From the NCBI RefSeq assembly GCF_054482525.1, contig NZ_CM137006.1: a stretch of DNA of 64,000 nucleotides; one strand, given 5' to 3'. This document shows positions 57,001 to 60,000 of the stretch, in pieces. Each line of letters starts with the position of its first letter. Within the stretch, counting starts at the first letter, position 1. The position numbers were made by a program.

Positions 57001-60000
57001 TGATGCAGCAGGCGAAGGTGATTCTGGCGGACGAACCCATCGCCTCGCTGGACCCGGAATCAGCGCGCATCGTGATGGACACCCTGCGCGACATCAACCA
57101 GAACGACGGCATTACCGTGGTCGTCACGCTGCATCAGGTGGATTACGCCCTGCGCTACTGCGAACGCATCGTCGCCCTGCGCCAGGGGCACGTCTTCTAC
57201 GACGGCAGCAGCCAACAGTTTGATAACGAACGCTTTGATCATCTCTATCGCAGCATCAACCGCGTCGAAGAGAACGCGAAAGCTGCCTGACATCCCCATC
57301 ATTGAGGAAAACGAATGAACGCTAAGATAATTGCCTCGCTGGCCTTCACCAGCATGTTCAGCCTCAGCACCCTGTTAAGCCCGGCGCACGCCGAAGAGCA
57401 GGAAAAGGCGTTGAATTTCGGCATTATTTCAACGGAATCACAGCAAAACCTGAAACCGCAATGGACGCCGTTCTTACAGGATATGGAGAAGAAGCTGGGC
57501 GTAAAGGTCAACGCCTTCTTTGCCCCGGACTACGCGGGCATTATCCAGGGGATGCGCTTCAATAAAGTGGATATCGCCTGGTACGGCAATCTGTCGGCGA
57601 TGGAAGCGGTGGATCGCGCCAACGGTCAGGTCTTCGCCCAGACGGTCGCGGCGGATGGATCGCCGGGTTACTGGAGCGTGTTGATCGTCAACAAAGATAG
57701 TCCGATCAACAACCTGAACGATCTGCTGGCGAAGCGTAAAGATCTCACCTTCGGCAATGGCGATCCTAACTCCACCTCTGGCTTCCTCGTCCCCGGCTAC
57801 TACGTCTTCGCCAAAAACAATATCTCCGCCAGCGACTTCAAGCGCACCGTCAACGCCGGGCATGAAACCAACGCGCTGGCCGTCGCCAACAAGCAGGTGG
57901 ATGTGGCGACCAACAACACCGAAAACCTCGACAAGCTGAAAACCTCCGCACCGGAGAAGCTCAAAGAACTGAAGGTGATCTGGAAATCGCCGCTGATCCC
58001 AGGCGATCCGATCGTCTGGCGCAAAAATCTGTCCGAAACCACCAAAGACAAGATCTACGACTTCTTTATGAACTACGGCAAAACGCCGGAAGAGAAAGCG
58101 GTGCTGGAGCGCCTGGGCTGGGCCCCGTTCCGCGCCTCCAGCGACCTGCAACTGGTGCCGATTCGCCAGCTCGCGCTGTTTAAAGAGATGCAGGGCGTGA
58201 AAGGCAATAAAGGGCTGAATGAGCAGGACAAGCTGGCAAAAACCACCGAGATTCAGGCGCAGCTGGATGACCTGGACCGCCTGAACAACACGTTAAGCGC
58301 GATGAGTTCGGTAAGTAAAGCGGTGCAGTAATGTGCTCGATCGGTCCCCTCTCCCTTGAGGGAGAGGGTTAGGGTGAGGGGGAAATGCGCACGCTGATGC
58401 CCTCACCCCGGCCCTCTCCCACAGGGAGAGGGAGAAAACATTAAACGGAGCAATATATGCAAACCATCACCATCGCCCCACCCAAGCGCAGCTGGTTCGC
58501 GCTTCTGAGCTGGGCCATTGTTCTCGCCGTGCTGGTCGTCTCGTGGCAGGGCGCGGAAATGGCCCCGCTCACGCTGATTAAAGGCGGCGGCAACATGGCG
58601 ACGTTCGCCGCCGACTTCTTCCCGCCCGATTTCAGCCAGTGGCAGGATTACCTCACCGAAATGGCCGTCACGCTGCAAATCGCCGTCTGGGGCACCGCGC
58701 TGGCGGTGGTTCTCTCCATCCCCTTTGGCCTGATGAGCGCCGAAAACCTGGTGCCGTGGTGGGTTTACCAGCCCGTTCGCCGCCTGATGGACGCCTGCCG
58801 CGCCATTAACGAGATGGTCTTCGCCATGCTGTTCGTGGTCGCCGTCGGTCTCGGTCCGTTCGCTGGCGTACTGGCGCTGTTTATCCACACCACCGGCGTG
58901 CTCTCCAAACTGCTTTCCGAAGCGGTAGAAGCAATTGAACCCGGCCCGGTGGAAGGTATTCGCGCCACCGGTGCCAACAAGCTCGAAGAGATCCTCTACG
59001 GCGTGCTGCCGCAGGTGATGCCGCTGCTGATCTCCTACTCCCTCTATCGCTTCGAATCCAACGTCCGTTCGGCCACCGTTGTTGGCATGGTCGGCGCGGG
59101 CGGGCTCGGCGTCACCCTGTGGGAAGCGATTCGCGGTTTCCAGTTCCAGCAAACCTGCGCCCTGATGGTGCTGATTATCGTCACTGTCAGCCTGCTGGAT
59201 TTCCTCTCTCAACGGTTGCGTAAGCACTTTATCTGATAAGCGAGGCATTGATAGCTATGCACTTGTCTACACATCCGACCAGCTACCCAACACGCTATCA
59301 GGAGATAGCCGCAAAACTTGAGCAGGAGCTTCGTCAACACTACCGCTGCGGCGACTATCTTCCCGCCGAGCAGCAACTGGCGGCGCGCTTTGAGGTGAAC
59401 CGCCACACCCTGCGCCGCGCCATCGACCAACTGGTGGAAAAAGGCTGGGTACAGCGCCGTCAGGGCGTCGGCGTGCTGGTGCTGATGCGCCCGTTCGATT
59501 ACCCGCTCAACGCCCAGGCGCGTTTTAGCCAGAACCTGCTGGATCAGGGCAGCCATCCCACCAGCGAAAAACTGCTGTCTGTGCTGCGCCCGGCCTCCGG
59601 TCACGTCGCTGACGCGCTGGGGATAACCGAAGGCGAGAACGTTATCCACCTGCGCACCCTGCGCCGGGTCAACGGCGTCGCGCTCTGTTTAATCGACCAC
59701 TACTTTGCGGACCTCACCCTCTGGCCGACGCTGCAACGCTTCGACAGCGGCTCGCTGCACGATTTTCTGCGCGAGCAAACGGGGATTGCGCTGCGCCGCA
59801 GCCAGACGCGGATCAGCGCCCGCCGCGCCCAGGCCAAAGAGTGCCAGCGTCTTGAAATCCCGAATATGTCGCCGCTGCTGTGCGTGCGCACCCTTAACCA
59901 CCGTGACGGTGAAAGCAGCCCGGCGGAGTACTCCGTCAGCCTGACGCGCGCCGACATGATTGAATTCACTATGGAGCACTGAATGCACGCAGATACCGCG

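What the first reader, a model, noticed from the sequence alone, without database searches (positions are those of the whole stretch)
58344..58433. Nested GC-rich palindromic repeat between phnD and phnE
The spacer contains two near-identical hairpins (ccctctccc ttga gggagaggg and ccctctccc aca gggagaggg) flanking an inner pair gggtgaggg / ccctcaccc. It is unlike the REP elements elsewhere in the window. It could be a member of another small repeat family or an intra-operon processing or attenuation structure; I cannot assign the family from memory.
Basis: seen in the sequence. Interest (0 to 1): 0.3.

Follow-up and report, generated by a model that had tools for sequence, protein, structure and literature searches.

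The report
BoxC repeat pair between phnD–phnE
The GC-rich nested palindrome between phnD and phnE is a full-length copy of BoxC, a known dispersed E. coli repeat whose function is still unknown, so the finding is real but ordinary.

Summary
Positions 58347-58432 hold CCCTCTCCC-TTGA-GGGAGAGGG-TTA-GGGTGAGGG, a 17-nt spacer, and the near mirror-complement. As RNA it folds to -72.8 kcal/mol (z = -7.3).

It is not a new family. The two halves match letter for letter the published BoxC / PIT / "TMECO" type A and type B units of E. coli K-12, also called G-quadruplex motifs HPG1/HPG2. They sit in the published A+B inverted-pair arrangement. Even the flanks (58332-58346 and 58433-58439) recur at the K-12 hrpB-mrcB copy. 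E. coli genomes carry a median of 13 matching places.

The site is allelic among 5426 complete E. coli genomes:
- 356 carry the full pair.
- About 970 carry a single-hairpin deletion remnant.
- 3744, including K-12, carry a REP/BIME pair instead.

Across 78 other species, nearly all have BoxC (40), REP (about 29) or a unique GC hairpin in this spacer.

There is no U-tract, so it is not an intrinsic terminator. My best reading, which is inference, is a generic intercistronic RNA stem-loop. It would fill a conserved "hairpin slot" after the binding-protein gene and act as an mRNA-decay barrier. A neutral selfish repeat is the main rival.

Novelty: already known.

The parts
57315..58331 (+). phnD, phosphonate ABC transporter periplasmic binding protein (338 aa); stop codon TAA at 58329-58331
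   Evidence: ORF list; annotated as phnD in matching E. coli RefSeq genomes
58332..58346 (+). Left flank of the repeat unit, TGTGCTCGATCGGTC. It belongs to the BoxC type A half-element.
   Evidence: The identical 15-mer flanks the type A unit of the K-12 hrpB-mrcB BoxC pair (alignment A2). Related GTGCTCAGACAGTC-like flanks occur at other K-12 pairs. It appears reverse-complemented on the other side of the hairpin in the 64-bp E. coli allele.
58347..58381 (+). BoxC / TMECO type A unit (= HPG1 G4 motif): CCCTCTCCC-TTGA-GGGAGAGGG-TTA-GGGTGAGGG-G
   Evidence: Differs only in its last base from TMECO no. 2 of E. coli MG1655 (PMC4666352 Table 1). It contains dGGGAGAGGGTTAGGGTGAGGG, the HPG1 motif (PMC5100583).
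58382..58398 (.). Spacer between the two units, GAAATGCGCACGCTGAT; it forms the loop of the long hairpin
   Evidence: Homologous to the spacer of the K-12 hrpB-mrcB pair. It is identical or nearly identical in the orthologous spacers of Enterobacter, Pseudocitrobacter and Kluyvera.
58399..58432 (-). BoxC / TMECO type B unit (= HPG2 G4 motif) on the minus strand: CCCTCTCCC-TGT-GGGAGAGGG-CCG-GGGTGAGGG-C
   Evidence: The reverse complement is 34/34 identical to TMECO nos. 1 and 4 of MG1655. It contains dGGGAGAGGGCCGGGGTGAGGG, the HPG2 motif.
58433..58439 (+). Right flank of the repeat unit, AGAAAAC (reverse complement of the GTTTTCT flank of type B units)
   Evidence: Shared with K-12 hrpB-mrcB (GGTTTTCT), alx-sstT (CGTTTTCT) and the 64-bp E. 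coli allele
58345..58435 (+). Predicted long RNA stem-loop in the phn operon transcript. It has about 36 base pairs in helices of 12, 1, 11, 9, 1 and 2 bp. No U-tract follows.
   Evidence: MFE -72.8 kcal/mol, z = -7.3. The alternative of three local hairpins gives -57.6 kcal/mol. No terminator-like site.
58447..58459 (+). phnE Shine-Dalgarno GGAG (58447-58450) and ATG (58457-58459), outside the main hairpin
   Evidence: The ACGGAGC...ATG motif is conserved across alleles and species.
58457..59236 (+). phnE, phosphonate ABC transporter permease (259 aa, intact)
   Evidence: annotated as phnE in matching genomes

Best explanation
Identity (near-certain, about 0.97). The element is a full-length BoxC repeat. 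Other names are "potential intrastrand triplex" (PIT) element, TMECO triplex motif, and HPG1/HPG2 G-quadruplex motif. It consists of one type A unit on the + strand and one type B unit on the - strand, facing each other across a 17-nt spacer, plus short family-specific flanks (58332-58439, 108 bp).

Mechanism (inferred, about 0.4). The element lies inside the phnCDEFGHIJKLMNOP transcription unit, so it is transcribed into the operon mRNA. There it folds into a very stable hairpin of about 36 bp with no U-tract. I propose it works as a generic intercistronic stem-loop. It would block 3'->5' exonucleases, and perhaps serve as a processing boundary. The phnC-phnD segment, which encodes the binding protein, would then outlive the distal phnE-P message. 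This is the role shown for REP elements at malE-malF (established knowledge, Newbury et al. 1987).

The particular repeat appears interchangeable. The same slot holds a REP/BIME pair in K-12, BoxC in three or four architectures or REP in other Enterobacteriaceae, and unique GC hairpins in Atlantibacter, Enterobacillus, Vibrio, Photobacterium and Oceanisphaera.

At the DNA level the nested palindrome is deletion-prone. Slippage between its direct CCCTCTCCC copies explains the remnant alleles.

Shown: identity, copy number, structure prediction, allelism, cross-species occupancy. Inferred: any effect on mRNA stability or on the PhnD:PhnE ratio.
For: Identity:
- Letter-for-letter match of both halves to Table 1 of PMC4666352 and to the HPG1/HPG2 motifs of PMC5100583.
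- The A+B inverted pairing is as described for five K-12 sites.
- Flanks and spacer are shared with the K-12 hrpB-mrcB copy.
- 5331 of 5426 E. coli genomes have matches, with a median of 13 places per genome.

Structure: -72.8 kcal/mol, z = -7.3. The long hairpin beats three local hairpins by about 15 kcal/mol.

Hairpin slot:
- E. coli alleles at this site are the full pair in 356 genomes, same-flank alleles in 1325 genomes in total, i.e. about 970 single-hairpin remnants, and K-12 BIME in 3744. Every sampled allele keeps a hairpin.
- Of 78 parsed species, 40 have BoxC, about 29 have REP-like elements, 7 have unique hairpins and 2 have none.
- More distant gamma-proteobacteria (Oceanisphaera, Photobacterium) also carry a GC hairpin right after phnD.
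- All four unit arrangements occur relative to transcription. This fits a symmetric hairpin role rather than a strand-specific G4 or triplex role.
- Other junctions of the operon are short (phnC-phnD 24 nt, phnE-phnF 11 nt).
Against: No expression data were available, so the mRNA-stability role is untested for any BoxC copy.

Published functional tests found no promoter or terminator activity and no effect on RNA polymerase for PIT elements. No functional class of neighbouring genes was found either (PMC4666352).

Occupancy of the slot by repeats could simply mean that the spacer is a permissive landing site, or that repeats target existing hairpins.

Beta- and alpha-proteobacterial and cyanobacterial phnD-phnE junctions (Acidovorax, Variovorax, Skermanella, Nostoc) have short spacers without a hairpin. 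The hairpin is therefore not required for phnCDE function in general.

The 86-nt core is 85/86 identical between E. coli and Enterobacter, while phnD third codon positions are only 64-68% identical. No compensatory changes are seen. A plain hairpin constraint does not predict this. It points to primary-sequence constraint or concerted evolution.

A hairpin this close to the stop codon (13 nt) could instead lower PhnD output, as reported for REP within 15 nt of stop codons (Liang et al. 2015, from memory; the paper could not be retrieved).
Confidence: 0.6

Rival explanations
1. Neutral or selfish repeat. The BoxC pair has no selected role in phn expression. It persists because the phnD-phnE spacer tolerates insertions, and its sequence is kept uniform by gene conversion or by an unknown mobilisation mechanism.
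For: Several observations fit this. The literature finds no expression function and no functional bias of neighbouring genes. The site is highly polymorphic, with only 6.6% of E. coli genomes carrying the full pair. All four orientations occur. Near-identity across genera far exceeds synonymous-site identity, as expected for homogenised or recently spread repeats. Some proteobacteria lack any hairpin at this junction.
Against: Unique, non-repeat GC hairpins occupy the same position in at least six lineages that lack BoxC or REP there: Atlantibacter, Enterobacillus, two Vibrio species, Photobacterium and Oceanisphaera. Only 2 of 78 parsed species have a hairpin-free spacer. No empty allele was seen in the E. 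coli sample.
Confidence: 0.35
2. DNA-level non-B structure. The purine-rich strand folds into an intrastrand triplex or a G-quadruplex, or the pair extrudes a cruciform. This would act as a regulatory switch or as a programmed source of local genome instability.
For: The consensus oligonucleotide forms a stable triplex in vitro, and TMECO loci are more variable than control loci (PMC4666352). CD spectroscopy supports a G4/hairpin switch (PMC5100583). This site shows the predicted instability. One allele has an exact 65-bp deletion between direct CCCTCTCCC copies. Another is an inverted remnant. Pseudocitrobacter faecalis carries a tandem duplication of the pair.
Against: Double-stranded TMECO gave no triplex signal, and in vivo DMS footprinting was negative. 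ViennaRNA with G4 energies still prefers the hairpin. Deletions between direct repeats that flank hairpins are ordinary replication slippage and need no triplex. Instability is a side effect rather than a demonstrated function.
Confidence: 0.15
3. RNase III processing site. The near-perfect duplex of about 36 bp in the mRNA is cleaved, which uncouples phnCD from phnE-P.
For: The predicted helix spans about three turns with few interruptions. That is the size range of known RNase III substrates (established knowledge).
Against: There is no direct evidence. The remnant alleles (9-bp stem) and the unique hairpins of other species are too short for RNase III. This therefore cannot be the conserved role of the slot.
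Confidence: 0.1
4. Rho-independent terminator or attenuator that reduces read-through from phnD into phnE.
For: A strong GC hairpin sits in an intercistronic position. Kaplan et al. speculated about a terminator role for intra-operon copies.
Against: The hairpin is followed by AGAAAACATTAAAC, with no U-tract, and the scan finds no terminator-like site there. PIT elements showed no terminator activity (Hoyne & Maher 2002, cited). Thirteen essential C-P lyase pathway genes lie downstream in the same operon.
Confidence: 0.03

Closest known systems
BoxC repeat (Bergler et al. 1992; Bachellier et al. 1999 survey) = PIT element (Hoyne et al. 2000; Hoyne & Maher 2002) = TMECO triplex motif (Holder et al. 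2015, PMC4666352)
   Same: Both halves have the same sequence as published K-12 copies, including the type A (TTA loop) and type B (CCG loop) distinction. The arrangement is the same A+B inverted pair, with the same flanks and spacer as the hrpB-mrcB copy. The element is intergenic and multi-copy.
   Different: Nothing differs in kind. This locus is not occupied in K-12, which has a BIME there, so it is absent from the K-12 lists. It lies inside an operon, like the K-12 pstA-pstB and yihS-yihR copies.
HPG1/HPG2 G-quadruplex-hairpin-duplex switch motifs (Kaplan et al. 2016, PMC5100583)
   Same: The 21-mers GGGAGAGGGTTAGGGTGAGGG and GGGAGAGGGCCGGGGTGAGGG are both present exactly, on opposite strands and less than 50 bp apart, as that paper describes.
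   Different: This is the same element under another name. G4 formation was not testable here, and the model prefers the hairpin.
REP / BIME elements, including the malE-malF REP mRNA-stabiliser paradigm
   Same: Both are small GC-rich palindromic intergenic repeats, often found as inverted pairs, transcribed in 3'UTRs or intercistronic spacers. A BIME occupies exactly this phnD-phnE slot in K-12 and in 69% of E. coli genomes.
   Different: The sequences are unrelated, and the REP consensus is absent from the element. REP has known partners (RAYT transposases, IHF, gyrase, Pol I; established knowledge). BoxC has none known.
ERIC/IRU and MITE-like small dispersed repeats
   Same: All are roughly 100-bp imperfect palindromes, intergenic, conserved across enterobacterial genera well beyond neutral expectation, and present or absent between strains.
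   Different: The sequences are unrelated. No terminal inverted repeats distinct from the internal palindrome were seen, and no target-site duplication is visible at this or the hrpB-mrcB copy.

Membership tests
BoxC / PIT / TMECO | Three-block unit CCCTC(T/G)CCC - loop - GGG(G)AGAGGG - TTA (type A) or CCG (type B) - GGGTGAGGG, 34-37 nt | tested here: met
   58347-58381 (+) matches TMECO no. 2 except for its last base. 58432-58399 (-) is identical to TMECO nos. 1 and 4.
BoxC / PIT / TMECO | Dispersed multi-copy occurrence in the same genome | tested here: met
   5331 of 5426 E. coli genomes have matches, with a median of 13 and a maximum of 25 places per genome. It is the only copy in this 64-kb window.
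BoxC / PIT / TMECO | Strictly intergenic location | tested here: met
   It lies between the phnD stop (58331) and the phnE start (58457).
BoxC / PIT / TMECO | When paired, one type A unit and one type B unit on opposite strands | tested here: met
   Type A is on the + strand and type B on the - strand, 17 nt apart. This is the same rule as in the five K-12 pairs, and it holds at this site across about 30 species.
BoxC / PIT / TMECO | Formation of an intrastrand purine-motif triplex by the single strand | not testable with these tools
   Shown in vitro for the consensus oligonucleotide only. It was not seen in duplex DNA or in vivo (PMC4666352).
REP / BIME | REP consensus (GCCGGATGCGGCG...GCCTTATCCGGCCTAC) | tested here: not met
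   A pattern search with 3 mismatches hits 35805, 55781 and 63680 but not this element.
Intrinsic (Rho-independent) terminator | GC-rich hairpin immediately followed by a U-tract | tested here: not met
   The scan returns no terminator-like site at 58340-58450. The tail is AGAAAACATTAAAC.
Rfam RNA families | Score at or above the gathering threshold of any of the 4227 covariance models | tested here: not met
   Only sub-threshold generic hairpin (miRNA-precursor) hits, with a best score of 28 bits against a gathering score of 168. The whole-window scan found nothing at this element.
MITE | Terminal inverted repeats plus target-site duplication | tested here: inconclusive
   Comparing the borders of this copy and the hrpB-mrcB copy by eye shows no shared duplication (TAA|TGTGC...AAAAC|ATTAA against AAATT|TGTGC...AAAAC|CAACC). 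No empty site with otherwise identical flanks was found for comparison.

The most novel reading that the evidence does not exclude
BoxC may be more than an inert palindrome. It could be a sequence-specifically maintained module that competes with REP/BIME for a conserved, functionally required hairpin slot downstream of binding-protein genes. Either an unknown protein would recognise it, or an unknown mechanism would mobilise it and target pre-existing hairpins. The 86-nt core, including its loop-forming spacer, is 99% identical between E. coli and Enterobacter, where neighbouring synonymous sites are only about 65% identical. In addition, a G.A mismatch is conserved in the commonest subtype. 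Neither is expected from selection on a simple stem-loop.
Probability: 0.2. Interest if true: 0.5.

Novelty: already known. Interest (0 to 1): 0.2.

Why it matters
For annotation, this should be labelled a BoxC (PIT/TMECO) repeat pair. It is not a new RNA element or an attenuator.

The wider interest is modest. BoxC has had no function assigned since 1992. This locus offers a natural allelic series in one operon: full pair, single-hairpin remnant, inverted remnant and REP/BIME pair. Other gamma-proteobacteria add unique hairpins at the same position.

That makes it a convenient place to test two things. The first is whether such repeats act as interchangeable mRNA-stability elements that set the ratio of binding protein to permease. 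The second is why their primary sequence is conserved well beyond neutral expectation.

Tried and rejected
- Rfam with permissive thresholds gave only generic hairpin (miRNA-precursor) noise.
- The terminator and promoter scan found nothing at the element.
- Folding with G-quadruplex energies did not displace the hairpin.
- I looked for a target-site duplication by comparing the borders of this copy and the K-12 hrpB-mrcB copy. None was evident.
- I tested for an orientation preference of the A and B units relative to phn transcription. There is none; all four arrangements occur.
- I tried to retrieve Liang, Rudd & Deutscher 2015 on REP elements near stop codons. It is not in the library, so that mechanism is cited from memory only.
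- Literature searches for BoxC surveys and for a phnD-phnE stem-loop returned nothing beyond the two NAR papers.
- The Holder et al. supplements do not mention phnD or phnE by name.
- The genome-contig scan returned no Escherichia or Shigella locus, so E. coli alleles were taken from the E. coli genome collection instead.
- K-12 BoxC copies lie downstream of a gene's 3' end at 16 of 18 loci (my count from the table shown). I judged this not clearly above what the usual mix of intergenic-region types would give, and I ran no formal test.
- The phnE Shine-Dalgarno pairs with 58334-58338 in the MFE structure. This is a weak 5-bp helix with non-conserved partners, so I treat it as incidental.
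Full report
**1. Observation**

- The first hairpin is CCCTCTCCC (58347-58355), TTGA, GGGAGAGGG (58360-58368).
- Next come TTA and GGGTGAGGG (58372-58380).
- The spacer follows, then CCCTCACCC (58400-58408) and CGG.
- The last hairpin is CCCTCTCCC (58412-58420), ACA, GGGAGAGGG (58424-58432).

The repeat finder recovers both local hairpins and a 27-nt outer inverted pair.

The element lies in the 125-nt spacer between the phnD stop (58329-58331) and the phnE ATG (58457). RefSeq annotation of matching E. coli genomes names the same two genes.

Chance does not explain it.
- The spacer folds as RNA to -72.8 kcal/mol, against -44.2 +/- 3.9 for shuffles (z = -7.3). The opposite strand gives -69.4 kcal/mol (z = -7.0).
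- The motif patterns have zero expectation in shuffled sequence.
- All six 9-mers of this type in the 64-kb window lie inside the element.

REP elements do occur elsewhere in the window, at 35805, 55781 and 63680. The one at 55781 scores as the REP-derived naRNA4.

**2. What it is**

Rfam has no family for it. A full-text search for the two 9-mers led to two NAR papers.

Holder et al. 2015 (PMC4666352) list 23 "TMECO" triplex motifs in E. coli MG1655. They state that these are the BoxC repeats of Bergler et al. 1992 and the PIT elements of Hoyne et al. 2000.
- The + strand 58347-58381 (CCCTCTCCCTTGAGGGAGAGGGTTAGGGTGAGGGG) equals their type A entry no. 2 except for the last base.
- The - strand 58432-58399 (CCCTCTCCCTGTGGGAGAGGGCCGGGGTGAGGGC) is identical to their type B entries nos. 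1 and 4.
- They report that at five K-12 sites a type A and a type B unit face each other on opposite strands. That is the arrangement here.

Kaplan et al. 2016 (PMC5100583) describe the same 21-mers as the G-quadruplex motifs HPG1 and HPG2.

I fetched the five K-12 pairs. The hrpB-mrcB pair is the same element in reverse orientation. It includes the flanks TGTGCTCGATCGGTC and AGAAAAC and a homologous spacer. The repeat unit in the window is therefore 58332-58439 (108 bp), slightly larger than the reported span.

The family is multi-copy. Of 5426 complete E. coli genomes, 5331 have matches to the 101-nt query, with a median of 13 places per genome and almost none on plasmids.

**3. The site is allelic in E. 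coli**

K-12 has no BoxC between phnD and phnE. It has a REP/BIME pair in a 105-bp spacer. Alignment of representative genomes shows five alleles:
- (i) The full BoxC pair (125 bp), as in the window.
- (ii) A 60-bp allele with identical flanks. The 65 bp between the two direct CCCTCTCCC copies are gone, which leaves one 9-bp hairpin.
- (iii) A 64-bp allele with a single hairpin whose flanks are those of the element in the opposite orientation.
- (iv) The K-12 BIME allele.
- (v) A BIME allele with a deletion.

Junction-specific searches give the counts.
- The full pair is in 356 genomes.
- Same-flank alleles are in 1325 genomes in total, so about 970 are remnants.
- The BIME allele is in 3744 genomes.

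No hairpin-free allele appeared in an evenly spread sample of 60 genomes.

This matches two reports by Holder et al. They found that TMECO loci are unusually variable. They also described a "palindrome effect", in which deletions in pairs leave a stem-loop.

**4. Other species**

A PhnD-based scan of one genome per species returned 80 loci. I parsed the phnD-phnE spacer in 78 of them.
- 40 carry BoxC units or remnants. These are Enterobacter, Leclercia, Lelliottia, Kluyvera, Pseudocitrobacter, Huaxiibacter, Yokenella, Silvania and Buttiauxella.
- About 29 carry REP-like palindromes. These are mostly Citrobacter, Salmonella arizonae and diarizonae, Cedecea and Dryocola.
- 7 carry unique GC hairpins: three Atlantibacter, Enterobacillus, two Vibrio and Enterobacteriaceae bacterium B14.
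- 2 have a 22-23-nt spacer with no hairpin.

Where two BoxC units are present, type A pairs with type B. All four arrangements occur (A> <B, B> <A, <A B>, <B A>), so there is no orientation preference relative to transcription.

More distant phnCDE loci came from the plasmid collection.
- Oceanisphaera has a hairpin with a 15-bp stem.
- Photobacterium has one with an 8-9-bp stem.
- Aureimonas has one with an 11-bp stem.
- Acidovorax, Variovorax, Skermanella and Nostoc have short spacers without one.

The "hairpin slot" is thus a feature mainly of gamma-proteobacteria.

The 86-nt core is 85/86 identical between the window and the orthologous spacers of Enterobacter wuhouensis and E. sichuanensis. 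Yet phnD is only about 84% identical overall and 64-68% identical at third codon positions. The element is therefore far better conserved than neutral sites, with no compensatory substitutions.

**5. How it most likely works**

*Shown.* The element is a BoxC A+B pair. It sits inside the phn operon transcript. It is predicted to form a long hairpin of about 36 bp, and three local hairpins are 15 kcal/mol less stable. No U-tract follows it and there is no terminator-like site. The phnE Shine-Dalgarno lies outside the main stem.

*Inferred.* The stem-loop acts as a generic 3'->5' exonuclease barrier or processing boundary. It would stabilise phnCD mRNA relative to phnE-P. REP does this at malE-malF (established knowledge), and the BIME allele presumably does it at the same position.

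The main support is the near-universal occupancy of this one junction by some stable hairpin of unrelated sequence. That includes non-repeat hairpins in lineages lacking BoxC or REP there. The other junctions of the operon are 11-24 nt.

*Against.*
- No experiment has addressed an mRNA-stability role for BoxC.
- Published tests found no promoter or terminator activity.
- The hairpin is absent outside the gamma-proteobacteria.
- The extreme primary-sequence conservation is not what a plain hairpin constraint predicts.

*Main rival.* The element is a neutral or selfish repeat at a permissive site, or one that targets hairpins, and is homogenised by gene conversion.

*DNA-level explanations.* Triplex, G4 or cruciform structures account for the observed deletion and inversion alleles as side effects. 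They lack in vivo support as functions.

*Other rivals.* An RNase III site is possible for the full pair but cannot be the conserved role, because the remnants and the unique hairpins are too short. An intrinsic terminator is essentially excluded.

**6. Comparison, novelty and verdict**

The element passes every testable membership criterion for BoxC/PIT/TMECO: unit sequence, A/B types, pairing rule, flanks, intergenic position and multi-copy status. It fails those for REP, intrinsic terminators and all Rfam families.

It is an already known kind of element at a locus present in hundreds of public genomes.

The "processing or attenuation structure" reading remains an untested possibility, and attenuation in the terminator sense is unlikely.

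Interest is low at 0.2. The residual value is that the phnD-phnE junction offers a natural allelic series for testing what BoxC and REP do in mRNA.

Noticed in passing
L001 13230-13340 (minus strand) = E. coli K-12 NC_000913.3 about 4,323,229-4,323,339: In K-12 and about 69% of complete E. coli genomes, the phnD-phnE spacer holds a REP/BIME pair instead of BoxC. Two unrelated palindromic repeat families alternate at one intercistronic site within a species.
   Followed up: yes
L011 2515-2768 (Pseudocitrobacter faecalis DSM 27453): The phnD-phnE spacer carries two tandem copies of the whole BoxC A+B pair (251 bp). PhnD of P. faecalis and P. vendiensis is 99% identical in protein to the window's, closer than any other non-Escherichia genus. 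No Escherichia or Shigella locus was returned by the genome-contig scan.
   Followed up: partly
window 58347-58432 versus L039 and L060 (Enterobacter wuhouensis, E. sichuanensis) about 2515-2630: The non-coding 86-nt core, including the 17-nt spacer that forms the hairpin loop, is 85/86 identical across genera, while phnD third codon positions are only 64-68% identical. This implies primary-sequence constraint or concerted evolution, which is unexplained.
   Followed up: partly
window 58387-58392; L006 (K-12 hrpB-mrcB); L031, L040, L046, L052: The central spacer hexamer GCGCAC is on the sense strand both in A> <B elements (the window) and in B> <A elements (Enterobacter and Lelliottia phn sites, K-12 hrpB-mrcB). 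The arms appear inverted around a fixed loop core. Only about 3 independent lineages are involved and the hexamer is a near-palindrome, so this may be chance.
   Followed up: no
window 63680-63713: A REP element lies further down the same phn operon region (the phnK-phnL gap in K-12 numbering). The operon therefore carries both BoxC and REP elements in its intercistronic spacers. K-12 also has a BoxC unit 24 nt downstream of phnP, at the operon end.
   Followed up: partly
window 55781-55861 and 49952-50117: A REP cluster scores as naRNA4 (RF02564, 85.5 bits). The sRNA STnc630 (RF02052, 181.8 bits) is on the minus strand.
   Followed up: no
window 58457-59236: phnE is an intact 259-aa ORF here, whereas K-12 annotates phnE1 as a pseudogene. 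The strain should therefore have a functional phosphonate importer.
   Followed up: no
K-12 pstA-pstB spacer (about 3,908,495-3,908,530), from PMC5100583 Table 1: A second Pho-regulon ABC-transporter operon (pstSCAB-phoU) also carries an intra-operon BoxC unit, 19 nt after pstA. This may be a coincidence.
   Followed up: no
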